From a phage: DNA of 64,000 nt. Positions 198 through 61,100 of the stretch are shown here, one piece after another. The notes below the pieces were generated by a model. The model was not told where the DNA came from. It worked only from the letters and a program-made list of their open reading frames with translations, and did not search any database. The translations under genes were made by a program, and so were the position numbers. How positions within the stretch are numbered: the first letter of the stretch is position 1; the number at the start of each line of letters is the position of its first letter. The DNA is taken from NCBI GenBank assembly GCA_028030915.1, contig GCA_028030915.1_4867.1; one strand, 5' to 3'.

Positions 198-218
198 AAG
201 ATGACATCTATCTGTAAA
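198..218 (-). promoter_or_regulatory. conserved intergenic motif copy 1 (+ strand AACATCTATCTGAAA-like), putative phage promoter/regulatory site
   Basis: gacatctatctgtaaaa directly downstream of the 222..539 stop and about 100 nt upstream of the ATG at 101; same motif at three other - strand intergenic sites. Confidence 0.3.
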
Positions 219-221
219 AAC

Positions 222-539
222 TTAGTATACGACCAGCACGACGCAGTCATCGATAGCCAGATTCAGTAATGCGTAGTCGTTACTTAACCGCTGGTAACGC
301 ATCCCTTTTTCAAACTGACTTAATTGTTCAGTCGGCATGGCGTATACCGCGCTTTGCACTACTCCCGTAAACAGTTCGTCGTAGAACTGGTCTACTTCCC
401 CGACTTTGTAAAAGCGCATTCTTTGATTGTTAGCAAAGACGCTGTCTAGCTTCCCGTTACTGGCTTTCTGTAACGCAGTAAAGGCACTGTCTGCATCATT
501 ACGCTCTAATGCACTTTTAATGGTTTGAAATAAAGACAT
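222..539 (-). CDS. hypothetical protein (105 aa)
   Basis: ORF with ATG at 539 and gaggag Shine-Dalgarno 9 nt upstream; no recognisable motif. Confidence 0.55.
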   Translation of the reverse strand: MSLFQTIKSALERNDADSAFTALQKASNGKLDSVFANNQRMRFYKVGEVDQFYDELFTGVVQSAVYAMPTEQLSQFEKGMRYQRLSNDYALLNLAIDDCVVLVVY

Positions 540-725
540 GGTACTGCACTCCTCGTTAGGTTAGAAGTCAAGGTCAACTACAAAAACAAAAAGGATGTCG
601 GTATCCTACGGATACCTCCGTTTATGTTCGCATCCAATACATAAACCCCCTTACCCCCGTACACTCCTCGATTGTCAAACGATGAGATCGAAACGTAAAA
701 AAGTGTAGTATGAGAGGAGGGTGGT

Positions 726-1658
726 ATGAATAAATCTAAGTCAGGGTTGCACATCTTCTCGATAGGTATCGTCGCGGAAGATAAACCTCGTGGTGCCACT
801 CGAGTTAAAGTCATCCCTATCGAAGTTAACTTTATTAATCCTACAGCTGTCGATGCAACAGAGACACCTGTAGAGAAGCAACACAACAGTTTAAGTGGTA
901 CTGACAACCTTACTGTAAAGCAAGGTAATGCCATCACTGCAAAATGGATGAAGTCCAACAGCAACCGGGTTAACCCTCCGGATGTGAAAAAAGAAGACTA
1001 CGTAAGAATCTGGCGTATCGGTGAAACCGATATGTACTTCTGGGAAGATTTAAACAACAGTAACGTTAAGCGACTGGAAGATGGGGTATACGCCTGGTCT
1101 GCTGACCCAGTAAACCAGATGGCCGATGACCTCTCTAACGCCTACGTACTGAATATCTCCCCGATGGATGGTCACGTTACTTTACGCACCAGTATGACTA
1201 ACGGCGAGAAAAATGCGTATCTATTTCAATTGAACACGCGCGATGGGTTTTTCCAGTTAGTAGATGACGAAGGGCGTAAGTTCTACCTTAACTCCCCAGA
1301 GGATGACTTAGGGTTTGAAAACGCCTGCCGATCGAAGGTTAATATCAATAAAGAGGACGCTTTCATTTATGCTAAACGTTCTATTAATCTCGAGACAAAA
1401 ACGATTAACGAGAAGTGCGAAACTCGCAACTCTACAGCGTCGAAAAACATGGCATGGACGACTGAAGACTGGAAGACCACATGCCCAACGAATCTATTTA
1501 CCGGTAACCTGGAAGTAGGTAAGGATTTCCTCTATAATGGCAAGGGTGAAGGTAAGGGTACATTCACAGTTACCGAATCGGTTATCGGTGGCATCACCTT
1601 TAGTCTTCACTTGCATACTGGCCATGGTCCGGGCAACGACACCAGTACACCGCACTAA
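726..1658 (+). CDS. hypothetical protein (310 aa), possibly structural
   Basis: ATG at 726 preceded by aggagg; 310-aa ORF; no family recognised. Confidence 0.65.
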   Translation: MNKSKSGLHIFSIGIVAEDKPRGATRVKVIPIEVNFINPTAVDATETPVEKQHNSLSGTDNLTVKQGNAITAKWMKSNSNRVNPPDVKKEDYVRIWRIGETDMYFWEDLNNSNVKRLEDGVYAWSADPVNQMADDLSNAYVLNISPMDGHVTLRTSMTNGEKNAYLFQLNTRDGFFQLVDDEGRKFYLNSPEDDLGFENACRSKVNINKEDAFIYAKRSINLETKTINEKCETRNSTASKNMAWTTEDWKTTCPTNLFTGNLEVGKDFLYNGKGEGKGTFTVTESVIGGITFSLHLHTGHGPGNDTSTPH

Positions 1659-1865
1659 GTTATTTACGTGTGTGGGGTATAATGTGACAATAAACCCCTA
1701 ACTGTAACGATAACCCGAATCGCTTGTGCACAGTTAGCCACTTTTTTCGCACAAAAGCCGGTTTATTGTCAACTAATTTACGAGTCGGGGCAGTTAATAT
1801 GCCTCGAAGTACAAGTAGTTGAACATAGGGTTCTTCTGCTATCATTTGTTAATGGAGATAAGTAA

Positions 1866-2075
1866 ATGAGCATTCGTGAAATCACCGCAGGCAGCGACGT
1901 TTCTGGTCTGGTAGAAGCAGGCACCGTTCAGGTTTCTGGACTGAGCACCGTTACCGAAGTTACCGAAGCGCTGGCTAAGAAAGCCGAAGCTGAAGGCGGC
2001 GTAGCATTTAAAGTTACCGCTTGCGGCGGCAACAACAAAATGTTCGGCAACGCCATCTATTACGTAAACGCGTAA
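1866..2075 (+). CDS. DUF1471 (YdgH/BhsA/McbA-family)-like small protein without signal peptide
   Basis: 69 aa; ...EALAKKAEAEGGVAFKVTACGGNNKMFGNAIYYV resembles the DUF1471 fold signature of enterobacterial YjfY/BhsA proteins; in-frame TAA immediately upstream of the ATG rules out an N-terminal signal peptide; ggaga SD. Confidence 0.55.
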   Translation: MSIREITAGSDVSGLVEAGTVQVSGLSTVTEVTEALAKKAEAEGGVAFKVTACGGNNKMFGNAIYYVNA

Positions 2076-2092
2076 TCGGCCTGCGGGCAAAA

Positions 2093-2147
2093 AAGATATA
2101 GGTACCCTACTCCCGTTGGGAGTAGGGTTTACCTTTTATTTTTTTCG
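2093..2147. terminator. bidirectional rho-independent terminator
   Basis: hairpin ccctactcc-cgttg-ggagtaggg (2105..2127) flanked by an A-run upstream and a T-run downstream; lies between convergent genes 1866..2075 (+) and 2136..3398 (-). Confidence 0.55.
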
Positions 2148-3398
2148 TGCTTTGTAGCGATGCATTTCAACAAATGGCTTACCCCAAGCCCCGAAAGGCC
2201 CGACGATTGCCTGCACGTCGTTTACCAAATTCTGGTTATACCAACGCGCGTTCCCCAACAAAAAGTTTTCCCGGTCGAAGAATGTGGTATTAAAGACCCA
2301 CTCCCCTTCTTCCCAGGTCGGCCAGTACCCTACACATTTACCAACACGGTTAAAGATAGGACCTAGCGTCTTCTTCCCATCTGGGTCAGTCGGGTCTTTT
2401 AAATAGAACCGGCCCCAGATAGCGTTGTGGCTTATTCCGTGAATCTCTTTTTCGAGATACGGGTTGTCTATCGTAAAGATAAACGAGGATTCGTGCGTCA
2501 GCAACGCTTTTAACGTTTCTGAGTTACGAATACGTTGAACGGACGTAGGCGTACTTAAATCACCTACACCGATGGCGTCCCAATCGTAATAGCGACGGGT
2601 TTCCAATACAATCTTCGCCACGCTAAGGTTTGGCAGACTCAGCATAATCGCACGGTCGCTGAAATAGCCCTGCGGCGGCAACCAATGCAGAATACCTCCG
2701 ATGACGAACCCAACGGTTTTCCCTGTAATGGAATCGGGTAAGGTCAACATTAACGAAGAATAGTAATCTCGCGTAGTATCGAGTTTGTTCATCGTTAAAC
2801 CGGATATGGGGTAGGTCTTTACTTTACCGATATTTGCCATCACCAGACAGCCAATGTCTGGCGTATTGGCACGCCGCACGATATTACCAGCGCCGGTTAA
2901 GCGAACGCCCACTGGGTCAGATTGGTGAGGTACCCACTGGCCGTTGATGTTGTACAGCACCCCAGTACGGTATTTCTCTTTCCACTCATCGTCGCAGACT
3001 ACAACAACGTCGTGTGCATCATCAGGATTGAAGTCCTGAGTGTAGTGGTACCCAGGAGGGCACAGGTGCGTTTCCACGGGCACATCTGCATTAATAGACT
3101 GGTAATGTGCCTCAACGAATTCGAGCTTCGGTAGGCCCTTCCCAAGCGTTGGAATCGCGATTCCTGACTTGGTGTTTAACCAATCTTGCAACGTGTCCGT
3201 ACGGTTTTGTAAATCAGCCAGGTGATACTGGCTATAGAAGGTATATTCAGCACCTAGTGCTTCTAGTCCTACTTCGAAAAAGTGGTAGTTAGCACAAAGG
3301 GTATTTAAGGGCTGCGTGACATCGATGGTTCCCCAAGTTCGGGTGTCTCGAGAGAAGCCAAAAGCGCTGTCGGCCCGCACTTGATAAGCAGTAGTCAC
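2136..3398 (-). CDS. hypothetical protein (420 aa)
   Basis: long ORF, divergent from the tail-fibre operon; no family recognised. Confidence 0.6.
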   Translation of the reverse strand: MTTAYQVRADSAFGFSRDTRTWGTIDVTQPLNTLCANYHFFEVGLEALGAEYTFYSQYHLADLQNRTDTLQDWLNTKSGIAIPTLGKGLPKLEFVEAHYQSINADVPVETHLCPPGYHYTQDFNPDDAHDVVVVCDDEWKEKYRTGVLYNINGQWVPHQSDPVGVRLTGAGNIVRRANTPDIGCLVMANIGKVKTYPISGLTMNKLDTTRDYYSSLMLTLPDSITGKTVGFVIGGILHWLPPQGYFSDRAIMLSLPNLSVAKIVLETRRYYDWDAIGVGDLSTPTSVQRIRNSETLKALLTHESSFIFTIDNPYLEKEIHGISHNAIWGRFYLKDPTDPDGKKTLGPIFNRVGKCVGYWPTWEEGEWVFNTTFFDRENFLLGNARWYNQNLVNDVQAIVGPFGAWGKPFVEMHRYKARKK

Positions 3399-3465
3399 TG
3401 GCTGTTTCCTCTAAGGATTCGGGTCATAGTATGAACTCGACGCCCTCAGAGAAAAGGAGTGTAAA

Positions 3466-14400: not shown

Positions 14401-16601
14401 TTGATCCGAACACCACTTACTCAGGTAAGGCGGGGTACGGCCCAACTAACAATCGTCGTGTGGTGGATTCTACCACGTACGAGAATCTGTCGCAGATGTG
14501 CCACATTGTTACACCGGCGTCGCCTGGTACAGAGTTAAACGGCTGGTATTGCACAGGACCAGAAACATTCCCTTACCACAACGTTTCTGGCACTTTCACG
14601 ATTCATGCCGATCGGTTGACGCTGTCACAAGCTGAATGGGATAAGATGAAGCAGATGATCATCGACGGAGCACCGGCAGGCGCTGCGAATGGTTATGCTT
14701 CGGAATTTATCCTTGCCGCAAATAACGCAGGAAAGGCATTGTTCTCCGTTTGGTTCATCGGCATTGGTACGGCCACACCGCTCACGTTAGCACAAGTAGC
14801 ATGTACGCGTACTGTGAACAACGTTAACGTGTTGGATATCTACTACTTTACACTGAAACCAACAATCAGCAACGGGCAGGTAACATTCCCGGCAGCGATA
14901 TTGGCATTGTTTGACTTCTATAACAACCTCGACTATGGCTTGAACTATGCTACGTTGGGTGAGATAACGGGAGGAAAAACACGCCGGCCGGGACAACCTA
15001 CACTGGTGTCAGTAGATGGTACTCAGTTCGGGTTGTATCTTCCACACACGTTAACCTTGCGCCAAATTGGCGACTTGGGTGCGCTTAACTACGGCGTTGG
15101 TCTTACGCTGTCTAATGGTACCTGGACGCGTTCTTCTGCTCCACACGGCATTGGACGCATGGCACCATCACACACTCCAGTCAGCCCAGCTTATCTGGCT
15201 CATCGTGATCAGGTGATGCTACACAACTCATCTCTCGACTACGTCTATTGTGGTGGTATCGCAATGTCGTCGAGTGATTTTGTCGCGGCTCCTAATTTTA
15301 GTGGCCCGACTGAATCGGTCGTCATTGCTGGTGTGGAAACAGCCGAAGGTTGGCTGGTATATGTGACTGAGGAAGTTGACCTGCGTTTCGGCTCGAGCAC
15401 TTATAAACTGCCTACGTGGTATATTGACCTCAGCGCAGCATTTCCAACAAACCATCAGAACCGGACATTCTACCTGCACGCCAAGGTAGAAAATGGTACA
15501 CCGAAGTACGTAATGGACGTGATTCAACATCCAGACACTGAAACGGAACTCTATATCGGGTATGTTAAAACGGGCTCGTCGCGAGTCGTCGAGACTAACG
15601 TCGAACATGCTAAGCGATTAGGGGCGGTGAAACAACTGTTGGAACATGCGGCGGTTGAGAATAAGCATGATGTGGAGGTGGGAAGGGATGCAGCAACGGG
15701 CAGACTGGCACCATTGCGTAAAGAAGCGATGGGTCCTTTGTCGATCGATGCTACGAAAGGCTATCTGGATAGTCAGTTGCTTTATACCGTATCTGACGCA
15801 CAGCGTCGCGGTAAAGCGATGGTCTCCAAACGTTTCGAAGGCTTGAAAACTTTGCCGGCGTTTACTCAGGCAAACAAGTCGGGGGCGTTTTGGAAACATC
15901 CTACAACAATTGCGACGGTAACGGCCGATGAGAACGGTGAAGCGGCATCGTTGGGAATGGAGTGGGTAGGTATTCCAACGCCCGCTTTCTCACCGACCTC
16001 AACGAACTTGATGGTGGTGGTGCAAAGTAAATTCGTCGTCCCAGGTACACCGGGAGTAGAAACGACCTTTAATGTCCACGTTGCCCCATGGGAGGCGGTG
16101 GATGGCTTTTTCTACAACGTCGAGGCGGAAGGTACGGATGTTAACATTGACGAAAATCCAGAAGTGTTATTGCCGTCACCACATACCGTGCACCACAAAC
16201 AGCACTCTCTGCCAGCAGGCGTGCCGTGCACCTTTACATTTGTCGCGGCGGTAAGTTCTTCAGCGCTCGAAACAGCCAACCAGCATATTTGCTCTTGGCT
16301 TTTCACGGAAGCGGGGGGACTACCAATCACCACCGATCTTTCGGATAGTAAGATTCAAATCTTACCACAGCCGGGAGAAACCTATGGCACTCCAGTTGTT
16401 CTGAACAGTCGTAGCTATACGTTTACGAATGTGGCAGGTGCAATCCCGGTTGTTACCACGGGCGCTCAGGGTTTATTCCCACCACCGATCGTGGCGTGGG
16501 ATGGCGATGATCTTACGTTAACGATTGCGCACGATTGGGTGAACGAGAGAGGACGTCAGCAGCCTGATATTATCCAGGTCAATCTTATGTTCCGTACCTA
16601 A
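11418..16601 (+). CDS. tail fibre protein (large, about 1727 aa from refined start)
   Basis: start refined to ATG 11418 (taggag SD) because the listed upstream start lies inside the hairpin; fibre repeats ATTTVQGLFAITNLSASAAAS and SVTGLAKLWDAIDTTSDKMVTSRQGF; HTHTIADLD motif. Confidence 0.7.
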   Translation: MPREDAAQFNGTLSTATYPNRYSTVIPVEAPFYRIGLTLTVTDKATGTKRKLIEGLDYFLGHYFQELAEAENDAIYGSIMLLNATEVEYELLSVGRQYRIPASEIGKYLVKTDMKDPRNCDWSELMKYPPIISPIDPPKDLEEAILRDEIVKALEDIRLGILERAHELDEAFAEVTDLIYQNGKQVFDDEMYQHHLIKNAHGYTCGDIGALPVLGKAVDATKAFGRTLAELVTLMSTSGIQQKHVDLLLDNTLGDLLGRMRVLNNDAITFQTTSGHVISMKGEKFIITSTKPLVLKADQDNNEPGIATEFSAGLNTLWVHSGKAGDKWGAYDAGVLAPVYNSVYLVTPDMVKMYLTSVKILPANAYFKSSDTLKIYGSGKETNKVYMNAELPAATTTVQGLFAITNLSASAAASTAISQKAVTDLKNKLDGYVDDTYTVNGKGFVLDSNGQMHLTLTAADFGIEKMDNTGPLEKPVTNALRTVLSGKAFTSHTHTIADLDNVPYASTSVTGLAKLWDAIDTTSDKMVTSRQGFLLEQKIDTLNDKIGTLLPAWTVGGSSYGNNNFLPIPVQGNYEGYTKNQTWQKGLARYESGKVYSLRNGSNGNPPGDWAIYYAYADVAADNTLTNMQQTSVRYRPAGMSAYPGVNLVAIVITGTDAMICLGSDGAYYLVIFDGTIDHAKHHRVVKVQLGDYRNGNAAGVITTAPWVADPSTNDLIVCNERVYLLRTVLTSGDYFVSMRSIALDELNLGGSNTFVADVLTGGMLTSGDNIYLRQGQKRSDTDVLVAPVTQIYADASAKWNSARNFVHGPECNHAIGVDGLNFRVGLTPTVWFASTTGQTINFKQWVSSFVVDCSSMTITLEGADRFPIVADLTTVRYNGGAEIGIPSRKWGEGQANNRTFATSQDKYIVSQGHAGDRDLMPYVTITTLDDGVSWYEYLSCDYNFTARSFSAVMLNQGRGSIYELGMAYPLTLGANSRLIWLSQPRTRLAIEVEFDPNTTYSGKAGYGPTNNRRVVDSTTYENLSQMCHIVTPASPGTELNGWYCTGPETFPYHNVSGTFTIHADRLTLSQAEWDKMKQMIIDGAPAGAANGYASEFILAANNAGKALFSVWFIGIGTATPLTLAQVACTRTVNNVNVLDIYYFTLKPTISNGQVTFPAAILALFDFYNNLDYGLNYATLGEITGGKTRRPGQPTLVSVDGTQFGLYLPHTLTLRQIGDLGALNYGVGLTLSNGTWTRSSAPHGIGRMAPSHTPVSPAYLAHRDQVMLHNSSLDYVYCGGIAMSSSDFVAAPNFSGPTESVVIAGVETAEGWLVYVTEEVDLRFGSSTYKLPTWYIDLSAAFPTNHQNRTFYLHAKVENGTPKYVMDVIQHPDTETELYIGYVKTGSSRVVETNVEHAKRLGAVKQLLEHAAVENKHDVEVGRDAATGRLAPLRKEAMGPLSIDATKGYLDSQLLYTVSDAQRRGKAMVSKRFEGLKTLPAFTQANKSGAFWKHPTTIATVTADENGEAASLGMEWVGIPTPAFSPTSTNLMVVVQSKFVVPGTPGVETTFNVHVAPWEAVDGFFYNVEAEGTDVNIDENPEVLLPSPHTVHHKQHSLPAGVPCTFTFVAAVSSSALETANQHICSWLFTEAGGLPITTDLSDSKIQILPQPGETYGTPVVLNSRSYTFTNVAGAIPVVTTGAQGLFPPPIVAWDGDDLTLTIAHDWVNERGRQQPDIIQVNLMFRT

Positions 16602-16648
16602 CAGATAGCGCTATGGGGCAAGGAAGCCCCAATCAAAGGAGTTTGGCA

Positions 16649-17851
16649 ATGGCCGAAATCATTCATCAGTACCCGCTCGACCTTACCGGGACATTAACGT
16701 CGAACGCCGTTACACGGCGTATTACGTTAGGTTCTGGTAAAGTTAACCGGGCTTTTGCATTTCCTGACGGAGCTTTCTACGCGGATACCTTCCGCTTGGC
16801 AGCTGCGAATAAACCAGGTGTCTACCCGTACAAACGCGGCACAGACTACGAACTGATTTTTGCACATACTGCATATCAGAAAATGACCAAGAACCGCGAA
16901 GTGGTCATGGGTGTGGTGGTAACTAACTCGGCCATTCCTACTGATATCGAGGTCTCTGCGCAAGTCGTTGGTGGTTTTCAGTCTGCGAACGTCGAAGGCA
17001 TCCGACAAGCGATTGCGTCGTTGAAAATTGAAGACCGCGTGGTGGACTTCAAGGATCTTCGAAACGTACCCGATACGTTCCCGTCCGCCCCGACGTATAA
17101 AGACCTTGGCGATATCTACGGTTTTGAGTATATCATTACCGTACTCGCGGGGATTAAAGATGCGATTAACTCCGGCTCTGCAGTACAGCTGGAAGAAATT
17201 AAAGGTATTCTGGATGGTCTGAAAAACGACTTCCTCGACGCCTTAAATACCCACATCAACGCCGAAGGTAACGTACACAATCTCGACATTCATCAGGTTA
17301 ATGGCCTGACGGAGACGGAGATTCGTGCCCTGATTCAAAGTGTACAGACTGCCATTGACGCCACTATCAGAGATATCGGCGACTTAAGAGCAGCAGACAC
17401 GGCATTGGGGCAACGCATCGATGCAATTGTGGCTTCGTTAGCCGCGTGGAACGACCAGCTTAACGTGGTTGCTCAAAATTACCAGAAAATGTCGTTAGCA
17501 TTAGCTAACCTTAATTCTCTGGTGTTGCAATTACAGAAGATGGTTAACGATCTTCAGTCTGCACTGAATGAAACAAATCAGCGTGTCACGGATCTTGAGA
17601 ATCAGGGCAAAGACTTCCAACAGCAAATTGATAACCTGCAAGGACAAATCAACAGTCTTAAAACTCAGGTTGTAAACAACACCAACGCAATTTCGCAGGC
17701 AAACCAGAATCTGGCGAACCATGCGGCTGCGGATAACCCACACCCGAATTACCTCCATAAACAGTATGGCGGTGTTGTGCAGGCTGCTGTTCACGTCAAC
17801 AACAACCTCACCTCGCGCGACGATGTTCAAGCTGAAGCGGGTACTAAGTAA
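16649..17851 (+). CDS. tail fibre-associated coiled-coil protein (about 400 aa)
   Basis: start refined to ATG 16649 (aaggag SD); N-terminal KRGTDYELIFAHTAY region shared with the fibre genes; long heptad-like segment LQLQKMVNDLQSALNETNQRVTDLENQGKDFQQQIDNLQGQINSLKTQ. Confidence 0.6.
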   Translation: MAEIIHQYPLDLTGTLTSNAVTRRITLGSGKVNRAFAFPDGAFYADTFRLAAANKPGVYPYKRGTDYELIFAHTAYQKMTKNREVVMGVVVTNSAIPTDIEVSAQVVGGFQSANVEGIRQAIASLKIEDRVVDFKDLRNVPDTFPSAPTYKDLGDIYGFEYIITVLAGIKDAINSGSAVQLEEIKGILDGLKNDFLDALNTHINAEGNVHNLDIHQVNGLTETEIRALIQSVQTAIDATIRDIGDLRAADTALGQRIDAIVASLAAWNDQLNVVAQNYQKMSLALANLNSLVLQLQKMVNDLQSALNETNQRVTDLENQGKDFQQQIDNLQGQINSLKTQVVNNTNAISQANQNLANHAAADNPHPNYLHKQYGGVVQAAVHVNNNLTSRDDVQAEAGTK

Positions 17852-23371: not shown

Positions 23372-23899
23372 TTAAACGAATCCGTCCAGTTCACCGTTGG
23401 TGGTGCTCAGGTCAGTTTTAACGATTGGCTGCGTTACAGTATAAACTGCAAGGCTGGCAGGTTGGTATTTAATGTGGCCTTCTTTCACCATAACAGTGAT
23501 GATTTTCTCACCACTGTCGCCGTCCTCGCGTGAAATGGTGAGTTCAGACAATGCAAACGCATCTTCCGTTTTACCGGCGGCAATTAGATCTGCGTTGACA
23601 AAAGCAAGCACTTCTTCATCGGTATCCCATTCTGCCTGGTCAGCGGTAACTGCTTTCGCACCGATGATGTTCAATGAATCGAGGCGGGTGTAATGCAGCT
23701 CTTTCTCGCCAGTAAAGTTAGCGGATTCCGCGGTGGCAGTGATGGTGAGTTTGGAGTTGCGAGTGTCTCCAGAATCTGCTGGTGAATAGTCAGCAACAGC
23801 GCCGAATGTAACGTCAGCAGTAGTTAACGGACTAGACAGTCCGCTGTTTGCAGCATTAAACAGCGCGACGAGTTGGTCTTTTGCAGAGATGACTGCCAT
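23372..23899 (-). CDS. paralog-family protein, short member with C-terminal NGELDGF tag (175 aa)
   Basis: N-terminus MAVISAKDQLVALFNAANSG resembles the family N-terminus; C-terminus TDLSTTNGELDGFV matches the tag of the A-type proteins. Confidence 0.6.
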   Translation of the reverse strand: MAVISAKDQLVALFNAANSGLSSPLTTADVTFGAVADYSPADSGDTRNSKLTITATAESANFTGEKELHYTRLDSLNIIGAKAVTADQAEWDTDEEVLAFVNADLIAAGKTEDAFALSELTISREDGDSGEKIITVMVKEGHIKYQPASLAVYTVTQPIVKTDLSTTNGELDGFV

Positions 23900-25164: not shown

Positions 25165-25806
25165 TTAAGGGGTAGTCAGGAACGCACGTTTGATATTCAA
25201 ATACTGCACGTTTACCGGTTGCCCATTAGTAATGTCAACACGTTCGTGTTCAGGAATCGCTAACGTACGCGACGTTCTAAAGAACAGGTAGTTGCGATTA
25301 TAGGACAACGTCTTTTCTACCGGCCGGCTATAAACCACCTTAGAGTTATCGTCTACATAGGACGGCCAACCAAACTCGTGAACGGCATGGTAGAAGGACT
25401 TACGAATAAAGGTGTCAACGCCTAATGCCTCCATGATACGTAAGAACATCAGGTCAGCGAAAGTTTTGTCACATGCACGAGATAGATTACCTTCGACAGT
25501 GTCAGGGTAAAAGCCTACAGATGAACGTTTCTGGTAAAACAAATCATGCACACAAGCGGCAGCAGCCCAAGGCCCATCCGGATGCAGGATAGGACGTAAC
25601 GCTTCTGGAATGCTTGCCAGGTCCGTCACAAATCCTTTCGGTACCGTTACCCATAACGGGGTATCCGGATGCACACCTGCTAATGCTACCATCGCATCCA
25701 TTCCGGTCTGTTCACGATAGAGGCTGCGCAACGTAAACTCGAAATGGAAATCATCCGTGAGGATAAACCACGGCTTCTCTAACAACTTATACTTAAGTGC
25801 TTCCAT
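25165..25806 (-). CDS. DUF1353-family protein (213 aa)
   Basis: VTDLASIP and CVHDLFY motifs typical of DUF1353; lies between the muramidase and the M15 peptidase. Confidence 0.55.
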   Translation of the reverse strand: MEALKYKLLEKPWFILTDDFHFEFTLRSLYREQTGMDAMVALAGVHPDTPLWVTVPKGFVTDLASIPEALRPILHPDGPWAAAACVHDLFYQKRSSVGFYPDTVEGNLSRACDKTFADLMFLRIMEALGVDTFIRKSFYHAVHEFGWPSYVDDNSKVVYSRPVEKTLSYNRNYLFFRTSRTLAIPEHERVDITNGQPVNVQYLNIKRAFLTTP

Positions 25807-47627: not shown

Positions 47628-48074
47628 TTAGTGTACTTCTTTTTCTAAACGCAGGCGATGCGTCGCTAAGGCGATTGCACGGTTTTCGAATTCAAGACTG
47701 AATGGGCTGATTTGTGCCATGTATTTCTTTACGATATCGTCAGAGACAACTTGACGACGATAATCACGAATCATTTCAGCAAAGCTGCTAGTAGGAAGTT
47801 CATCGTATTCGATTTCCATACCACGTTTATTGATGTAGTACGAAGCAATCATGTCGTTAAACATTACATCGCCGGCTTCACCTAGAGGGAACTCGTCGCG
47901 AGTAGGTTCTGTGGTCTGGAACGTGGCTTCTTTGGCGTTGGCGATAATCTCTTCGAAGTCCTCAGTAGTGAATTCGCTAGGGTCTTGTTTGTTGGCCGCC
48001 ATCACGATTAGGAAAGAAATCATAATCGGGTTTTTGCTAGCGTACTTAGTAAGTTCGTTATTCAGAATGTACAT
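47628..48074 (-). CDS. hypothetical protein (148 aa)
   Basis: ATG 48074 with aaggag SD; conserved intergenic motif about 63 nt upstream. Confidence 0.55.
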   Translation of the reverse strand: MYILNNELTKYASKNPIMISFLIVMAANKQDPSEFTTEDFEEIIANAKEATFQTTEPTRDEFPLGEAGDVMFNDMIASYYINKRGMEIEYDELPTSSFAEMIRDYRRQVVSDDIVKKYMAQISPFSLEFENRAIALATHRLRLEKEVH

Positions 48075-48129
48075 GTTAAAACTCCTTAAGATAATGGTCG
48101 ATTAGATAAGAGTTAATGGTTAACTCTCA

Positions 48130-48155
48130 CCTAAGTAATATATATCTGAAAATAA
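48130..48155 (-). promoter_or_regulatory. conserved intergenic motif copy 2 (variant atatatatctgaaaa)
   Basis: between the terminator at 48171..48209 and the ATG at 48074. Confidence 0.3.
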
Positions 48156-48170
48156 TTGTAATCGGACTAG

Positions 48171-48209
48171 GCAAAAAAAGAAGAAGCCCTACTCCCGAAG
48201 GAGTAGGGT
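48171..48209 (-). terminator. rho-independent terminator
   Basis: ccctactcc-cgaa-ggagtaggg hairpin with - strand T-run cttcttcttttttt. Confidence 0.6.
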
Positions 48210-48245
48210 ACTGCTTTATTCGCTACCCTTGGTATAAGCGTCATC

Positions 48246-48674
48246 CTAGTTGATGTGGAGTAGAGTGTCCTTCAACGCCTTCTGCTTTTCGTACGACTGA
48301 CGACACAAGGAAGTCAGCGTCGAATACGCCGTGCCGGTACGCACCGGTAATTCGCCACCCGCTTCGGTGGGTTCTGTACGAACAAAAGACCCTTCTTCAA
48401 ACGGCGGCGCTGCGTGTGGGAAGTTCTTTTTCATGTATCGCTTATACCAGCCGGCCACAACACGGATAACTTTTGGCATCTGAGATCGTCGGTCACGTAC
48501 TTTCTTCCCGTGCATCTGATTCATCTCGGAAGACATGCATAGCGAGGTGTACTGACTGAATCCGTCACTGACCCACTTACCGTCCTGGACCAGTAATTTC
48601 TTACCAACTGCTACAGCGATTCTCGGAGAGAAAATGACCGCACCATCTCTACGTTTCTTAGGCTTAAGCATCAT
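48246..48674 (-). CDS. hypothetical basic protein (142 aa)
   Basis: ORF; Lys/Arg-rich; N-terminus MMLKPKKRR resembles the start of the upstream gene (MLKPRKQKR). Confidence 0.5.
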   Translation of the reverse strand: MMLKPKKRRDGAVIFSPRIAVAVGKKLLVQDGKWVSDGFSQYTSLCMSSEMNQMHGKKVRDRRSQMPKVIRVVAGWYKRYMKKNFPHAAPPFEEGSFVRTEPTEAGGELPVRTGTAYSTLTSLCRQSYEKQKALKDTLLHIN

Positions 48675-49467
48675 TATCGTCCTTGTATAGGGAGTCGTAA
48701 GGGCTGTTAGTGTTCATGTTAAATTCTTGTTCTACTTCAGGATGTTGTGAAAGGGAATCCAGAAAGATCGGTTGATATCCACCCTCTGTACGTTTCTTTA
48801 TCATTTCAAGGAACGACTTTCCATCAGGAACATCAGGTGTTGATACTAACACCGTGTCAGAGACTGTCGGTAAACGCGTGCAGCCTTCAGTGTTCAGCTG
48901 TAGTACCGCGTCTGGTGCGATGTGTCTGATGTTAGGAAACTTCAACGCGATCTCTTCCATCTTCGCTTTCAATGCATCACCGTTTAGCAGCGGTACAGTC
49001 GGCGTCATATAAGCGAACTCAACATCTCGATCGGCCACATAATCGCGTAAGTGTTTTCGGGCTGCTACTGTAGCAGAAACTTGCTCTTTATTAGCGTTTA
49101 TGCCGATGTCATTAAAGCGTTTTAGTTTGTCTAAGAAAACGCTAATGTTTTCCTTCGGCATAGGGCGTGGGAACTTACGCAGAAAATAAAGTTGTTCGCG
49201 GCCAGGCACCCAGCTGAGTACCCAGCACGCTTTTAGTGTACGGAAGATATCACGATAGGGTTTCTTCTCTTGAAAGAAATCCCCTTTTAACTGGCAACGG
49301 TCTTCAACCATTGCCTGGAGTTGGGTGGCTACGTTGGCCATTGCCGACCAGGTGATAAGACGACTACGGTGTTTACCCACGTAGAGACGTCCACCTGTAA
49401 CACGACGGGACTGTGGATGTACTATTTTGACAAACTGTAATCTTTTCTGTTTGCGTGGCTTTAACAT
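48664..49467 (-). CDS. hypothetical protein (about 267 aa)
   Basis: start refined to ATG 49467 (aaggag SD 7 nt upstream); the listed longer ORF would begin without an SD. Confidence 0.5.
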   Translation of the reverse strand: MLKPRKQKRLQFVKIVHPQSRRVTGGRLYVGKHRSRLITWSAMANVATQLQAMVEDRCQLKGDFFQEKKPYRDIFRTLKACWVLSWVPGREQLYFLRKFPRPMPKENISVFLDKLKRFNDIGINANKEQVSATVAARKHLRDYVADRDVEFAYMTPTVPLLNGDALKAKMEEIALKFPNIRHIAPDAVLQLNTEGCTRLPTVSDTVLVSTPDVPDGKSFLEMIKKRTEGGYQPIFLDSLSQHPEVEQEFNMNTNSPYDSLYKDDNDA

Positions 49468-49544
49468 TTTAATACTCCTTATGGTCGTAACTAATTTGAA
49501 ACTGTTGCTTTTAAGGATTAACGAACAGCCTGCCAACCTCTAAT

Positions 49545-51952: not shown

Positions 51953-52306
51953 TTACTGTTTAGCCCAGTATTCGGCTAACGTTTGGTCACCTTTACCGAT
52001 GCGAGCATGAATGCCCATTTTACGCAGCCGGTACAGTTCAAGGGACATGGTGTTTAGTTTGATAAGATTTACGTCCGTTGGACTCTTAAGGCAATCGTCT
52101 AATACATTAACGAATTTATCCAGCGCCTCTTGCGGAACTTTACCTTCTGGGTAGTCGTACAGTGTTATCACTTTAAAGGTGTAACCGTCGATATTCGACA
52201 ACTGTTTTACAGCTTCACCGATATCACGATTTATCATCGGTGTCCTATTGAGACGCATTGGTCTGGCAACACCGATTACTCTACTCATTGACCACCCCCA
52301 AACCAC
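51953..52306 (-). CDS. hypothetical protein (117 aa)
   Basis: ORF; overlaps the upstream gene by 26 nt. Confidence 0.5.
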   Translation of the reverse strand: MVWGWSMSRVIGVARPMRLNRTPMINRDIGEAVKQLSNIDGYTFKVITLYDYPEGKVPQEALDKFVNVLDDCLKSPTDVNLIKLNTMSLELYRLRKMGIHARIGKGDQTLAEYWAKQ

Positions 52307-52613
52307 TTACAGTGGATGCTGCGGGGACATCCAGGTTATTCATCCATAGCGACAGCTTGTTCATCTTCGCTGCGGTCTCTGGGCTAGGGTTATTGCGCAA
52401 TTCACTTAAAGCCATCGCATACTGGGTTGCCAGTATTTGACTGCCGTAGAAAGCACCACGGCTTACAGGCAGCGCCTCGAAGCGTGCATCGAAATTGTTT
52501 GCTTGGTTAAGTTCTTTAACAGTGCTCAGAATGGCTTCTTGCATTCGAAGTTCACCGTCGCCTTCAAGGTCAGTTGCCTGACGCAATACCGCAATGTGAT
52601 AGACTTTGGACAT
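52281..52613 (-). CDS. hypothetical protein (110 aa)
   Basis: ATG 52613 with aaggag SD; conserved intergenic motif about 68 nt upstream. Confidence 0.55.
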   Translation of the reverse strand: MSKVYHIAVLRQATDLEGDGELRMQEAILSTVKELNQANNFDARFEALPVSRGAFYGSQILATQYAMALSELRNNPSPETAAKMNKLSLWMNNLDVPAASTVSGLGVVNE

Positions 52614-52675
52614 TTTAATTGCTCCTTAATACATGACATAAGCTCTGATTGAAACGTAAATTTCAGAGGTTCACT

Positions 52676-52700
52676 GAGATAACATCTATCTGAAATAAAA
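52676..52700 (-). promoter_or_regulatory. conserved intergenic motif copy 3 (aacatctatctgaaa)
   Basis: between the terminator hairpin of the 1005-aa gene and the start at 52613. Confidence 0.3.
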
Positions 52701-52736
52701 TAAAGCGTACCAGCCACCCCGAAGGATAGCTGGTAT
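52696..52736 (-). terminator. hairpin plus T-run (terminator of the 1005-aa gene)
   Basis: taccagc...gctggta stem with - strand T-rich gctttattttat. Confidence 0.4.
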
Positions 52737-52740
52737 ACAC

Positions 52741-55758: not shown

Positions 55759-55761
55759 GGC

Positions 55762-56765: not shown

Positions 56766-56775
56766 TAACGCCTCC

Positions 56776-56820
56776 AGAAACAAAAAAAATAAGCTACCAC
56801 ACATATGATCGTGTGGTAGC
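56776..56820 (-). terminator. rho-independent terminator
   Basis: gctaccacac-atatgatc-gtgtggtagc hairpin with - strand T-run ttattttttttg. Confidence 0.55.
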
Positions 56821-56834
56821 CTACTCGTACGCCG

Positions 56835-57230: not shown

Positions 57231-57241
57231 GAGGACTCTCC

Positions 57242-58577: not shown

Positions 58578-58585
58578 CCTTTACC

Positions 58586-58813
58586 TCACTTTTGTTTCTG
58601 TTTTTCTTCACGCATCAACGCCGTTTTACCCGTGCCTCTTGGCCCTTCTATTAAAAGGTTCTGTTTGTGGACCGTATGTCGGTCCACTACGTTAAGTTTA
58701 TTGGCACGGTATCGATTACGTAGCGCAATCGCCAGCATTTTCTTTGCTTGCGTTTGTCCATATACGTAACGGTCGAATGGCGACACTATCTCAATCGGTG
58801 TGAGGTTTTCCAT
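58586..58813 (-). CDS. HslU N-terminal domain fragment-like protein (75 aa, Walker A only)
   Basis: MENLTPIEIVSPFDRYVYGQTQAKKMLAIALRNRYRANKLNVVDRHTVHKQNLLIEGPRGTGKT aligns by eye to the E. coli HslU N-terminus through the P-loop; ORF stops 12 residues later; start overlaps the upstream stop (TAATG). Confidence 0.55.
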   Translation of the reverse strand: MENLTPIEIVSPFDRYVYGQTQAKKMLAIALRNRYRANKLNVVDRHTVHKQNLLIEGPRGTGKTALMREEKQKQK

Positions 58814-59022
58814 TAATTTTCCTCTTTCAATATCTCAGCAACTGCTTTACGGCACGCATTCACCGCGTCAGGATAAGTGGTACTGTTCGGGTCTACGCGG
58901 TCAATGCACATTCTGAACGTACTGGTTGCGGTCTCGCGACGTTCTGCAGTGCGGGTACTGGTGCTGATGGCGATATAGATACAAAACAACACAGCAGCCA
59001 CGATCGGCCAACATAGATTCAT
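58813..59022 (-). CDS. small membrane or secreted protein (69 aa)
   Basis: hydrophobic N-terminus MNLCWPIVAAVLFCIYIAIST; translationally coupled to the HslU-fragment gene. Confidence 0.5.
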   Translation of the reverse strand: MNLCWPIVAAVLFCIYIAISTSTRTAERRETATSTFRMCIDRVDPNSTTYPDAVNACRKAVAEILKEEN

Positions 59023-59720
59023 CAGTAGTCCCCCGTTGCCCCTATCGCAGTCGCTACTTTACTGACAACCTCGTCAACCGGAAGCACCACCTCGTCTTTC
59101 TTGCTCACAATCTCTGGTACTTCTTTGACATGTTCAACGGTCACGTCAAACTTCCGAGTATAACCAACGAGCAGGTTGGCCATTTCTGCACGACTAACGA
59201 ACTGTTGTTCTTCCGACAGATGTAACGACGTATCAAGTAGTCCAGAATGCATGAAGTTTTCAATGAGCTGGTCTTCTTCCGCTTTGAAGTCGTACCGCTC
59301 GTTCGGGGCGGCCACAAACGCATAACCGAAATATTTCCCTTCTTCCTGTTCAGGACGTAGCGATTTAACTAACTTCTCAGCGTGTTCACAGAAGTCCGCC
59401 AAAGTATAATCGTCAAGTGTGGCAACTGCGGTTTCTGTTGCAATTTCACCGGTGTCGAGTTCAGTGAGGTGCATCACCCAAAGATGCCATGGTCGCGGTT
59501 GGTCGAACAGCCCACCGACTAACATATCTGTGGCGATAGCACGAATACGTGGGCTTGCTGTAAAGTGAAAACCACGGCCCGCGTACGGCCCGAGGCGACG
59601 AATCGAACTACCGATAAACGTGATACGATTCAGAGCGTTTTCAGCGACGGTGTGTGCCGTACGTTCTGTGGCAACTTTCGGGTTATACTTTTTGTTACGG
59701 GGTTTCTTTTGCTTAGCCAT
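59022..59720 (-). CDS. hypothetical protein (232 aa)
   Basis: ORF; start overlaps the upstream stop. Confidence 0.5.
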   Translation of the reverse strand: MAKQKKPRNKKYNPKVATERTAHTVAENALNRITFIGSSIRRLGPYAGRGFHFTASPRIRAIATDMLVGGLFDQPRPWHLWVMHLTELDTGEIATETAVATLDDYTLADFCEHAEKLVKSLRPEQEEGKYFGYAFVAAPNERYDFKAEEDQLIENFMHSGLLDTSLHLSEEQQFVSRAEMANLLVGYTRKFDVTVEHVKEVPEIVSKKDEVVLPVDEVVSKVATAIGATGDY

Positions 59721-60100
59721 TAGTTAAAAACCTTTTTGCAAACTGTGTGGAATACTTTACGAATTTCACGAAGGGATTGTTCGGTGTGCAGATAACGATA
59801 CGTTATCTTCCACGCGTTATACGTGTTTTTCAGGGTGATTTCGCTGAGGTCATAAACGAAATCATCATCAGGGTACATGAGTCTCGCCATGGATAAATCC
59901 CACAACGGTGGAATATCCGCTTTCATTAACTCAGCAACTAGCTCATGCGCTTTGTGCTCAAAGCCAACACCAAGAACAAACACTACATGGAACTCCCCTG
60001 GCGAGTTCTTTTTAGAATATGGTCCGTGTCCATGACATGACCACATTGTCGTCGAGCGTGGGGTAACGGCAAATAACTTCACACGCATCCCGTACCCCAC
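59720..60100 (-). CDS. hypothetical protein, possibly the C-terminal part of a frameshifted gene
   Basis: GTG-start ORF without SD; overlaps the better-supported small ORF 60012..60191 in another frame. Confidence 0.35.
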   Translation of the reverse strand: MGYGMRVKLFAVTPRSTTMWSCHGHGPYSKKNSPGEFHVVFVLGVGFEHKAHELVAELMKADIPPLWDLSMARLMYPDDDFVYDLSEITLKNTYNAWKITYRYLHTEQSLREIRKVFHTVCKKVFN

Positions 60101-60191
60101 GCTCGACCCAACCGTTTACGAGCGCTTCGGATGCCCGTAGTTTAAACCGATCCAAAACTTTCAGATCCACACCACCGTATAAAACTGGCAT
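60012..60191 (-). CDS. small ORF (59 aa) with strong SD, possibly the N-terminal part of a frameshifted gene
   Basis: hand-found: ATG 60191 with aaggag SD 8 nt upstream; MPVLYGGVDLKVLDRFKLRASEALVNGWVERGVRDACEVICRYPTLDDNVVMSWTRTIF. Confidence 0.35.
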   Translation of the reverse strand: MPVLYGGVDLKVLDRFKLRASEALVNGWVERGVRDACEVICRYPTLDDNVVMSWTRTIF

Positions 60192-60219
60192 CTTTAATTC
60201 TCCTTAAGGGTGTCTTCAT

Positions 60220-60672
60220 TTAATGGTTGTGTTCTGTAAAAATTGCGAGTGCGAGCCAGTGCTCCATCACTCTTTCCATCACATCTGGGTCAGGTCGATA
60301 GTTGAGTCTAAACGTCCAGCTTGGATAACAGAGATTCGCGTTGCCTTCTTGACGCAGCCAAGTAAAGTTTAACTGAAAACGTTTCCCGTATTCGTGCGGC
60401 TGCCATCCTTCTAATAAATGATTAATGTCTTTAAGACCCGCCTCGGTTGCCACAAATGTTAAGCTGTGGTGTCTACGTGTACGAAGCTTGTCTCCGTCTT
60501 TGCGAACTTCTCCCGTGAATGCCCAAACGGTTGCGATATTCGGCCATTCGCTAAATGCCCTAATGATTGCACGCGTTTTAACATCGACTGGTTTTTCAGC
60601 ATCCAGCGCCCGGATTGTGCGCTGCTTGTACACGGCCAATTCCGCATCATTGACGACTGAACATTGAAACAT
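60220..60672 (-). CDS. hypothetical protein (150 aa)
   Basis: ATG at 60672; ORF in the gene string. Confidence 0.5.
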   Translation of the reverse strand: MFQCSVVNDAELAVYKQRTIRALDAEKPVDVKTRAIIRAFSEWPNIATVWAFTGEVRKDGDKLRTRRHHSLTFVATEAGLKDINHLLEGWQPHEYGKRFQLNFTWLRQEGNANLCYPSWTFRLNYRPDPDVMERVMEHWLALAIFTEHNH

Positions 60673-60690
60673 GGTATATCCCCCAGAGGG

Positions 60691-60732
60691 TTAAAAATAA
60701 AAAGAGCCCTACCTAACCGAAGTTAGGTAGGG
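60691..60732 (-). terminator. rho-independent terminator
   Basis: ccctacctaac-cgaa-gttaggtaggg hairpin with - strand T-run ctctttttatttttaa. Confidence 0.6.
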
Positions 60733-60738
60733 GACTAC

Positions 60739-61044
60739 TTAAGCGACAGCGCGTTTGCGTTTATCGACGACTTTCTTGGTTGCTTTCGCTGCCTTCTTAG
60801 TGGCAGGGATAGTATCAACCGGGGTGTCGGCTACCAAGGCACGCTCTACACCGTCTGCACGTACGACGCGCAGATTCTTCGCCTGTGGTAAGCCTTTGAA
60901 AGTGATGGTCAAACCCGCGCGGAGACCTTGATACAGAAACCCTTGCAGGTTCAGTTTCTTGGCGGTTGCAGTGTTCTCACAACCTTTCTCCACGTACAGC
61001 AGAGTCGTACCTGCGCGTTTAACAATTGTGTATTGTTTAGCCAT
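60739..61044 (-). CDS. hypothetical protein with Lys-rich C-terminal tail (101 aa), possibly nucleic-acid binding
   Basis: aagga SD; C-terminus TKKAAKATKKVVDKRKRAVA; conserved intergenic motif about 39 nt upstream. Confidence 0.5.
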   Translation of the reverse strand: MAKQYTIVKRAGTTLLYVEKGCENTATAKKLNLQGFLYQGLRAGLTITFKGLPQAKNLRVVRADGVERALVADTPVDTIPATKKAAKATKKVVDKRKRAVA

Positions 61045-61077
61045 CTACTTTTTCCTTTCTTTACAGTTAGGTTCAGT

Positions 61078-61100
61078 AAAATAACATCTATCTGAAAAGT
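61078..61100 (-). promoter_or_regulatory. conserved intergenic motif copy 4 (aacatctatctgaaaa)
   Basis: between the stop at 61107 and the ATG at 61044. Confidence 0.3.

What the first reader, a model, noticed from the sequence alone, without database searches (positions are those of the whole stretch)
198..61100. Conserved intergenic motif AACATCTATCTGAAA (four copies) upstream of - strand genes: candidate phage promoter
The same 15 to 17-nt sequence occurs at 204..214, 48137..48154 (variant), 52681..52695 and 61083..61097, always in intergenic DNA and about 40 to 100 nt upstream of a - strand start codon. Three of the four sit just downstream of a terminator hairpin. On the transcribed strand it reads TTTCAGATAGATGTTAT, which is neither a sigma-70 nor a T4 late (TATAAATA) consensus, consistent with a phage-specific promoter (own RNA polymerase or sigma factor) or a regulatory protein binding site. 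All four copies lie in the early-type small-gene region or at its edge.
Basis: seen in the sequence. Interest (0 to 1): 0.5.

Follow-up and report, generated by a model that had tools for sequence, protein, structure and literature searches.

The report
Early promoters of a jumbo phage
The repeated motif is real and marks four early promoters of an SPN3US-like giant Salmonella phage, of the type read by the RNA polymerase that phiKZ-like phages carry inside the virion; this promoter class is already well described, so the finding is correct but ordinary.

Summary
The window is about 97% identical to Salmonella jumbo phage SPN3US, a phiKZ-related phage. All four copies are present at the stated coordinates. 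They are all intergenic, on the minus strand, and 39-102 nt upstream of minus-strand start codons.

A matrix trained only on 19 SPN3US sites outside the window region recovers exactly these four sites in the window and nothing else. SPN3US has 23 such sites. 21 of them lie in the 6.2% of the genome that is non-coding, and all 23 are on the coding strand.

The sites precede the non-virion RNA polymerase genes but not the virion polymerase genes. They recur at orthologous gaps in an Erwinia relative. In phiKZ, matching sites sit before gp54 and gp68.

The consensus matches the published predicted early promoters of OBP and N1M2 almost base for base. It also has the architecture mapped experimentally in AR9, ATATTAT-(6N)-G(+1).

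Verdict: these are early promoters read by the injected virion RNA polymerase. Predicted starts are at 194, 48128, 52672 and 61074 on the minus strand. No transcript data were available. This is a new member of a known kind, of low interest.

The parts
187..222 (-). Early promoter c1 (36-mer, about -28 to +8): AGTTTTTACAGATAGATGTCATCTTAGTGAGCATTG. Predicted start is G at 194, giving a 93-nt leader to the start codon at 101..99.
   Evidence: Scores 28.6 bits with the independently trained matrix. Identical to SPN3US 161910-161945. The start position is inferred from the ATATTAT-(6N)-G(+1) rule.
48121..48156 (-). Early promoter c2, the TATATTAC subtype: ATTATTTTCAGATATATATTACTTAGGTGAGAGTTA. Predicted start is G at 48128, giving a 54-nt leader.
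   Evidence: Scores 41.5 bits. Conserved at the orthologous gap of Erwinia phage pEa_SNUABM_29.
52665..52700 (-). Early promoter c3: TTTTATTTCAGATAGATGTTATCTCAGTGAACCTCT. Predicted start is G at 52672, giving a 59-nt leader.
   Evidence: Scores 29.6 bits. In the Erwinia orthologue the motif is retained while the upstream terminator region has diverged completely.
61067..61102 (-). Early promoter c4: CGACTTTTCAGATAGATGTTATTTTACTGAACCTAA. Predicted start is G at 61074, giving a 30-nt leader.
   Evidence: Scores 27.3 bits. The Erwinia orthologue keeps TTTTCAGATAGATGTTATTT while the downstream sequence diverges.
48187..48208 (-). Intrinsic terminator ending the transcription unit upstream of c2.
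   Evidence: Terminator scan. Folds at -18.8 kcal/mol, z = -3.4.
52708..52735 (-). Intrinsic terminator directly upstream of c3.
   Evidence: Terminator scan: 12 pairs followed by a T-run. Folds at -24 kcal/mol, z = -5.8.
61095..61138 (-). Atypical hairpin upstream of c4. It overlaps the stop codon of gene 61107-61658, and its 3' arm and T-run overlap the promoter's -27..-21 T-rich block.
   Evidence: Folds at -17 kcal/mol, z = -3.7. Not called by the terminator scan.
60707..60732 (-). Intrinsic terminator right after the first gene downstream of c4. This makes c4, the 101-aa gene and the terminator a likely monocistronic unit.
   Evidence: Terminator scan.
60739..61044 (-). First gene downstream of c4 (101 aa, unknown function).
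   Evidence: ORF list. PHROG 12339, unknown function. No Pfam hit.
52281..52613 (-). First gene downstream of c3 (110 aa, unknown function).
47628..48074 (-). First gene downstream of c2 (148 aa, unknown function).
1..101 (-). 5' part of the first gene downstream of c1. It runs off the window and corresponds to the 412-aa SPN3US gene 162031-163269, of unknown function.
   Evidence: Sequence read. Collinearity with SPN3US. PHROG 33648, unknown function.

Best explanation
The four copies are early promoters of an SPN3US-like, phiKZ-related jumbo phage.

Proposed mechanism (inferred): the multisubunit RNA polymerase packaged in the virion (SPN3US gp42, gp218, gp240, gp241 and gp244) is injected with the DNA. 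It recognises a roughly 36-bp element made of these blocks:
- an A-rich block with invariant A at -29;
- TTTCAG at -23..-18;
- an AT-rich core ATATTA(T/C) at -13..-7.

It starts transcription at the invariant G six bases downstream of the core. In the window this G lies at 194, 48128, 52672 and 61074 on the minus strand. Each promoter sits just after the end of the preceding transcription unit, behind an intrinsic terminator in two or three of the four cases. Each restarts transcription into short genes of unknown function.

Shown here: the motif, its family, its placement and its conservation. Inferred: which polymerase reads it, the start site and the early timing.
For: 1. Identity of the phage. 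The window is 96-98% identical to SPN3US-like jumbo phages.

2. Family behaviour.
- SPN3US has 23 sites scoring at least 25 bits. 21 of them lie in the 6.2% of the genome that is intergenic (binomial P about 1e-23), and 23 of 23 are on the coding strand.
- 300 shuffles of the intergenic DNA gave no hits.
- A de novo count of 8-mers in intergenic DNA gives only terminator T-runs, ribosome-binding sites and this motif.
- An independently trained matrix picks exactly the four window sites.

3. Match to known early promoters.
- The published predicted early promoters are N1M2 TTTCARRYAKATATTATYWAAGTGWA, OBP TTTYARRYAKATATTATYWWADTG, 201phi2-1 ...TATATTACDWHDGTG and phiKZ TATATTAC (PMC7058600).
- The AR9 early consensus mapped by dRNA-seq and primer extension is AAATATATATTAT-(6N)-G(+1). 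In phiKZ and phiR1-37 the start also lies 6 nt after the element (PMC5312081).
- Here ATATTAT-(6N)-G holds, with G invariant in 23 of 23 sites.

4. Placement.
- Sites precede the non-virion polymerase genes (SPN3US 28960 before 29014; 15605 and 15698 before the 15768/17704 pair) and the gp68 homologue (23801 before 23886; BLASTP 2e-13).
- None precedes a virion polymerase gene.
- The SPN3US matrix hits phiKZ upstream of gp54 (nuclear shell protein), gp58.1 and gp68, at syntenic positions. It also hits OBP upstream of OBP_007 and OBP_016.

5. Footprinting. The motif is kept at the orthologous gaps of Erwinia phage pEa_SNUABM_29 while the flanks diverge.

6. General statement in the literature. 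Every RNAP-encoding jumbo phage has such a motif upstream of early operons, centred near -10 (PMC7598289).
Against: - No transcript 5' ends, timing data or polymerase-binding data exist for this phage in anything I could access. The polymerase assignment and the start site rest on analogy.
- Three of the four window sites carry G at -11, where 19 of 23 family members have A. They may therefore be weak or atypical.
- Two of the 23 SPN3US sites are intragenic.
- Downstream of c4 and c2 the short genes are followed by virion structural genes on the same strand, so where early transcription ends is not resolved.
- The polymerase genes are not in the window. They are inferred from near-identical relatives.
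- The protein determinant that recognises these promoters is unknown for the whole family (PMC5312081; PMC13282480).
Confidence: 0.85

Rival explanations
1. The motif is an operator for a phage-encoded DNA-binding regulator, for example the HTH protein encoded at SPN3US 94310, rather than the promoter itself.
For: Part of the core is a short dyad, AGATA-N5-TATCT, which gives weak reverse-strand matrix hits at two divergent gaps. One site precedes an HTH protein gene.
Against: The perfect dyad is present in only 7 of 23 sites, and in only one of the four window sites (inspection). Conservation is strongly asymmetric: A at -29, TTTCAG upstream, G at +1 downstream. 23 of 23 sites share the gene's orientation. 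The spacing to an invariant G equals the experimentally mapped start in AR9, phiKZ and phiR1-37.
Confidence: 0.05
2. The motif is a promoter for the phage's second, non-virion polymerase (middle or late class), not for the virion enzyme.
For: Some sites lie upstream of units that run into virion structural genes.
Against: The sites precede the non-virion polymerase genes themselves and the gp68 homologue, which must be transcribed before that enzyme exists. Published phiKZ middle and late promoters look different: a weak AT-rich block at -24, and TATG at the start (PMC7598289). The motif carries the phiKZ early signature TATATTAC.
Confidence: 0.05
3. The motif is a host sigma-70 promoter used for the first transcription after injection.
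For: TATTAT lies at -12..-7 relative to the invariant G and matches TATAAT at 5 of 6 positions in 12 of 23 sites.
Against: There is no -35 element: the best TTGACA match at 16-18 nt spacing is 1-4 of 6, and mostly 3 or fewer. The best-conserved subtype has C at -7, and the window sites have G at -11; both positions are critical for sigma-70 (established knowledge). The sigma-70 scan finds nothing on the minus strand at the four sites, and its total count is at chance (18 found against 20.6 expected). Conservation extends well beyond a -10 hexamer. phiKZ-type development does not depend on host polymerase (PMC7598289).
Confidence: 0.03
4. The motif acts at the RNA level, as a leader, processing or translational-operator element inside longer transcripts.
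For: It lies in untranslated DNA 39-102 nt before start codons.
Against: In two or three cases it lies immediately after an intrinsic terminator, so little read-through RNA would contain it. There is no Rfam match in the window. If the start is at the invariant G, nearly the whole motif is upstream of the transcript.
Confidence: 0.02

Closest known systems
Predicted early promoters of Pseudomonas phage OBP and Klebsiella phage N1M2 (consensus TTTCARRYAKATATTATYWAAGTGWA; PMC7058600, Table 2)
   Same: Almost base-for-base the same consensus, including the upstream A/T block, TTTCAG, the ATATTAT core and GTG(A) at the start. Copy number is similar (31 in N1M2, 23 here). The SPN3US matrix finds intergenic, co-oriented sites in OBP.
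   Different: The host and genus differ (Seoulvirus on Salmonella). A second spelling, GATATATATTACYTAGGTGAGAGTTA, co-exists in the same genome. Three of the four window copies have G at -11.
phiKZ early promoters (TATATTAC; 28-32 per genome, transcribed by the virion RNA polymerase)
   Same: The core is shared, and copy c2 contains TATATTAC exactly. Positions are syntenic: before the nuclear-shell gene position and before gp68 and its homologue. The transcription strategy is the same, with two phage multisubunit polymerases.
   Different: The phiKZ promoters have been validated by primer extension and RNA-seq; these have not. Most SPN3US-type sites read TAGATATTAT rather than TATATTAC.
Bacillus phage AR9 early promoters, AAATATATATTAT-(6N)-G(+1), mapped by dRNA-seq and primer extension (PMC5312081)
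   Same: The same core ATATTAT, the same 6-nt spacer and the same invariant G start.
   Different: AR9 has uracil-containing DNA, forms no phage nucleus and is only distantly related. It lacks the TTTCAG block at -23..-18.
201phi2-1 early promoters (ONT-cappable-seq; conserved at about -10, -20 and -30)
   Same: The same three-block layout, with an AT-rich core about 10 bp before the start. They precede hypothetical genes.
   Different: Only six were detected experimentally there, and the spelling of the flanking blocks differs.
Bacterial sigma-70 -10 element
   Same: A TATAAT-like hexamer sits at -12..-7 relative to the predicted start.
   Different: There is no -35 element. C at -7 or G at -11 is tolerated. 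Conservation extends over about 36 bp, and the polymerase lacks a sigma homologue.

Membership tests
Virion-RNA-polymerase early promoters of phiKZ-related jumbo phages | Extended, highly conserved AT-rich element with core (T)ATATTA(T/C) | tested here: met
   Columns -13..-8 (ATATTA) are invariant or nearly so across 23 sites. They match the published consensus of OBP, N1M2, 201phi2-1, phiKZ and AR9.
Virion-RNA-polymerase early promoters of phiKZ-related jumbo phages | Conserved start nucleotide 6 nt downstream of the core (sequence pattern) | tested here: met
   G is present 6 nt after ATATTAT/C in 23 of 23 SPN3US sites and in all four window sites. The rule comes from PMC5312081.
Virion-RNA-polymerase early promoters of phiKZ-related jumbo phages | Primary transcript 5' ends actually map to that nucleotide | not testable with these tools
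   No transcriptome of an SPN3US-like phage was found in the held literature.
Virion-RNA-polymerase early promoters of phiKZ-related jumbo phages | Tens of copies per genome, intergenic, co-oriented with the downstream gene | tested here: met
   23 sites. 21 lie in the 6.2% of the genome that is non-coding (P about 1e-23). All are on the gene strand. Predicted leaders are 26-135 nt, with two longer.
Virion-RNA-polymerase early promoters of phiKZ-related jumbo phages | The genome encodes a virion-packaged multisubunit RNA polymerase | tested here: met
   This is not in the window. It holds in the 96-98% identical SPN3US: RNA polymerase beta-type genes are annotated, and gp42, gp218, gp240, gp241 and gp244 are shown to be packaged and essential (PMC5694885).
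Virion-RNA-polymerase early promoters of phiKZ-related jumbo phages | Sites precede the non-virion polymerase genes and other early genes, not the virion polymerase genes | tested here: met
   Sites lie before 29014 and before the 15768/17704 pair (both non-virion beta-type polymerase genes) and before 23886 (gp68 homologue). None lies before 39365, 189763, 212357, 213989 or 220023. Downstream genes are of unknown function.
Virion-RNA-polymerase early promoters of phiKZ-related jumbo phages | Transcription is early, rifampicin-resistant and independent of new protein synthesis | not testable with these tools
   This needs infection experiments.
Bacterial sigma-70 promoters | A -35 hexamer (TTGACA-like) 16-18 nt upstream of the -10 hexamer | tested here: not met
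   The best matches are 1-4 of 6, and mostly 3 or fewer. The scan finds no sigma-70-type site on the minus strand at the four copies.
Bacterial sigma-70 promoters | A -10 hexamer TATAAT with A at -11 and T at -7 | tested here: inconclusive
   The match is 4-5 of 6. However, 7 of 23 sites have C at -7 and 4 of 23 have G at -11, including three of the four window sites.
T4-type late promoters | TATAAATA at -10 | tested here: not met
   The sequence is absent from all four sites.

The most novel reading that the evidence does not exclude
The G(-11) spelling (GATGTTAT/GATGTCAT) occurs in only 4 of the 23 SPN3US sites, and 3 of those 4 lie in this window. It could define a functionally distinct subclass of virion-polymerase promoters, for example weaker or delayed-early ones. 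The terminator-promoter cassettes could also act as recombination joints: the gene replacements between this phage and SPN3US lie next to them (window 48221-49029 and 58620-58770). Neither idea was tested beyond one observation: the Erwinia orthologues keep G at c4 but have T at c3.
Probability: 0.1. Interest if true: 0.35.

Novelty: new member of a known kind. Interest (0 to 1): 0.15.

Why it matters
**Use for annotation.** SPN3US is the genetic model for giant nucleus-forming phages of enterobacteria, yet its records annotate no promoters. The 23 predicted sites, with predicted start points, define its likely early transcription units. They therefore point to the candidate host-takeover and anti-defence genes, which are all of unknown function here.

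**Use for mechanism.** The positions that stay invariant from AR9 through phiKZ and OBP to SPN3US are A at -13, T at -12, T at -10, A at -8 and G at +1. They are the natural targets for finding how the sigma-less virion polymerase recognises promoters, which is still unknown.

**Limits.** None of this changes current understanding. It confirms that the established model applies to this phage.

Tried and rejected
Not significant alone. Replaced by a 36-column matrix.
- **Is SPN3US 15768-17621 the nuclear-shell protein (chimallin)?** Two motif copies precede it. BLASTP against OBP_057 and phiKZ gp54 gave nothing, and there was no PDB hit. Only synteny and size support the idea, so it is not claimed.
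- **Function of the genes downstream of the motif.** PHROGs returned only families of unknown function and Pfam returned nothing, for 20 proteins.
- **Primary papers not held.** Lavysh 2016 (Virology), Ceyssens 2014 (J Virol) and Cornelissen 2012 (J Virol) were unavailable. I therefore could not check whether an SPN3US logo has already been printed.
- **Supplementary start-site tables.** Those for 201phi2-1 and phiKZ are not held.
- **Literature searches for an SPN3US promoter or transcriptome.** Nothing specific was found.
- **Rfam.** No family matches in the window.
- **Sigma-70 and T4-late readings.** Rejected.
- **Dyad-symmetric operator reading.** Rejected, because the dyad is present in only 7 of 23 sites.
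Full report
**1. The observation**

The pattern AACATCTATCTGAAA occurs exactly at 52681-52695 and 61083-61097. It occurs with two mismatches at 203-217 and 48137-48151. The 11-mer CAGATAGATGT is exact on the minus strand at 204-214, 52682-52692 and 61084-61094.

With three mismatches allowed, four matches are not unusual: 1.66 are expected, and 12 of 100 shuffles reach four.

Read on the minus strand, the four copies align over about 27 positions: TTTCAGATAGATGTTATCTTAGTGA. The repeat finder independently reports one 29-nt family with exactly these four members (family D5).

All four lie between minus-strand ORFs. Their start codons are 102, 63, 68 and 39 nt further on. The first start codon is at 101..99.

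Canonical intrinsic terminators lie directly upstream of the copies at 48137 and 52681. The copy at 61083 follows an atypical hairpin (-17 kcal/mol, z = -3.7). The copy at 203 follows none.

**2. What the window is**

The window is 96-98% identical to SPN3US-like jumbo phages of Salmonella, E. coli and Proteus. It is about 76% identical to Erwinia relatives. It is collinear with SPN3US 97.9-162.1 kb in reverse orientation, with two short replacements.

SPN3US is a phiKZ-related, nucleus-forming phage (PMC13282480). Its virion carries a five-subunit RNA polymerase made of gp42, gp218, gp240, gp241 and gp244, which is essential (PMC5694885). The SPN3US record annotates further polymerase beta-type genes that are not in the virion set. 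None of these genes is in the window.

**3. The motif is a genome-wide family**

I assembled SPN3US (240 kb, 264 genes, 93.8% coding) and scanned it with a matrix built from the four window copies. After iteration there are 23 sites scoring at least 25 bits.

- 21 of the 23 lie in the 6.2% of the genome that is intergenic (binomial P about 1e-23).
- All 23 are on the coding strand.
- 300 shuffles of the intergenic DNA give no hit.
- An unbiased count of intergenic 8-mers returns only terminator T-runs, ribosome-binding sites and pieces of this motif.

Nothing else in the window reaches 8 bits. The best score in 200 random windows averaged 6.0, with a maximum of 22.9. The four copies are therefore real, and they are the complete set in this window.

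**4. Anatomy**

I aligned the sites on the invariant G downstream.

- Invariant positions (23 of 23): A at -29, A at -13, T at -12, T at -10, A at -8 and G at +1.
- Nearly invariant: A at -17 and A at -15 (22 of 23 each), G at -18, T at -16 and T at -5 (21 of 23 each), A at -19 (20 of 23), T at -9 (22 of 23) and A at +2 (20 of 23).
- A T-run fills -23..-21, and an A-rich block fills -28..-24.

Two spellings co-exist. One is GATAGATATTATCT. The other is GATATATATTACYTAGGTGAGAGTTA; copy c2 is of this type.

That is a minority spelling, found in 4 of 23 sites, three of them in this window.

There is no -35-like hexamer. The short dyad AGATA-N5-TATCT is perfect in only 7 of 23 sites.

**5. What it matches**

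- The published predicted early promoters of related phages are N1M2 TBYAWWWWWTTTCARRYAKATATTATYWAAGTGWA (31 sites), OBP BSHAWWWWWTTTYARRYAKATATTATYWWADTG, 201phi2-1 ...TATATTACDWHDGTG and phiKZ TATATTAC (PMC7058600). The SPN3US-type consensus fits the N1M2 and OBP strings almost base for base.
- In AR9, dRNA-seq and primer extension define early promoters as AAATATATATTAT-(6N)-G(+1). In phiKZ and phiR1-37 the start is also 6 nt after the element. AR9 early transcription does not need new protein synthesis (PMC5312081).
- Here ATATTAT/C is followed after exactly 6 nt by the invariant G. That G is therefore the predicted start: window minus-strand 194, 48128, 52672 and 61074, giving leaders of 93, 54, 59 and 30 nt.
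- Two papers describe the same layout: a conserved AT-rich element centred near -10, with further conservation near -20 and -30. These are a review (PMC7598289) and the 201phi2-1 start-site study (PMC11512511). The review states that such a motif can be found upstream of early operons in every polymerase-encoding jumbo phage.

**6. Placement supports early, virion-polymerase use**

- SPN3US sites precede the non-virion polymerase genes: 28960 before 29014, and 15605 plus 15698 before the 15768/17704 pair.
- A site at 23801 precedes 23886, which is homologous to phiKZ gp68, the sigma-like subunit of the non-virion enzyme (BLASTP 2e-13; role from PMC13282480).
- No site precedes a virion polymerase gene.
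- The SPN3US matrix applied to phiKZ hits upstream of gp54 (nuclear shell protein), gp58.1 and gp68. The gp54 and gp68 hits are at positions syntenic with the SPN3US sites.
- In OBP the matrix hits upstream of OBP_007 and OBP_016.
- The first genes after the window's four sites, and the rest of the c3 unit, have no known function. This is typical of early genes in these phages (PMC11512511).

**7. Conservation**

Erwinia phage pEa_SNUABM_29 has the motif on the gene strand at four intergenic gaps. Three are orthologous to c2, c3 and c4.

- At c3 the upstream terminator region is unrelated, but TTCAGATAGAT(G/T)TTATCT..GTGAA is kept.
- At c4 the block up to the core is kept and the leader diverges.
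- At c2 the whole gap is conserved, so it is uninformative.

**8. Rivals**

- A sigma-70 promoter is unlikely. There is no -35 element, C at -7 and G at -11 are tolerated, the scan finds nothing on the right strand, and phiKZ-type development is independent of host polymerase.
- A non-virion-polymerase promoter is unlikely, because the motif precedes that enzyme's own genes and differs from published middle and late motifs.
- A symmetric operator is unlikely, given the asymmetric conservation, the strict orientation and the rarity of the dyad.
- An RNA-level element is unlikely. The motif would lie upstream of the transcript, it follows terminators, and there is no Rfam match.

**9. What remains inferred**

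The polymerase assignment, the start nucleotide and the early timing all rest on analogy with AR9, phiKZ, phiR1-37 and 201phi2-1. I found no transcript data for any SPN3US-like phage. I could not read the primary papers that may already show an SPN3US logo. How the sigma-less virion polymerase recognises these promoters is unknown for the entire family.

**10. Verdict**

The element belongs to a well-described class, the early promoters of phiKZ-related jumbo phages, and its consensus is nearly identical to ones already published for relatives. It is at most an unannotated member of a known kind. Interest is low (0.15).

Noticed in passing
window 60707-61102: Promoter c4, a single 101-aa gene (60739-61044) and an intrinsic terminator (60732..60707) form what looks like a self-contained monocistronic early unit. 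Virion-protein genes follow on the same strand.
   Followed up: partly
window 48221-49029 and 58620-58770: These are the only stretches of the window with no megablast match to SPN3US. The first is the distal end of the c3-driven unit, next to the terminator-promoter cassette of c2, and includes most of a 290-aa ORF (48664-49536) with no Pfam hit. At the second, SPN3US has about 830 nt where the window has about 150 nt.
   Followed up: partly
window 33626, 37035, 41270, 44862, 45718, 56544 (21 nt each): A 21-nt repeat, TAAACGGTCGTAATAGACCGT, occurs six times (family D4). All copies lie inside minus-strand virion-protein genes about 200 nt after their starts. It probably encodes a conserved peptide motif of a paralogous structural-protein family (see also families D1-D3 and D6-D8).
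   Followed up: no
window 48121-48128; SPN3US 94230, 165678, 56285, 65404, 223268: The TATATTAC-type promoters share a conserved initially transcribed sequence, G(+1)AGAGTTA, beyond the promoter proper. This may reflect a constraint on promoter escape or on the mRNA 5' end, or recent spread of a cassette.
   Followed up: no
SPN3US 15605/15606 and 191593/191594 (L002, L005): At two divergent intergenic gaps the quasi-palindromic core also gives a weaker matrix hit on the opposite strand. The reverse reading breaks the invariant T at -10, so it is probably a by-product of the dyad rather than a bidirectional promoter.
   Followed up: partly
SPN3US 25217-25252 and 174945-174980 (L002, L004): Two family members lie partly or wholly inside annotated genes. 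They may be internal early promoters, or the genes may be mis-annotated.
   Followed up: no
window 52614-52672 versus L006 17492-17545: The predicted leader of the c3 unit keeps blocks conserved between the Salmonella and Erwinia phages (TTACGTT and GCTTATGTC), although the terminator region upstream is unrelated. It may be a structured or regulated leader.
   Followed up: no
SPN3US 15768-17621 (L002): A 617-aa gene preceded by two tandem motif copies sits at the syntenic position of the phiKZ and OBP nuclear-shell gene and has a similar size. It shows no BLASTP or PDB similarity to those proteins.
   Followed up: partly
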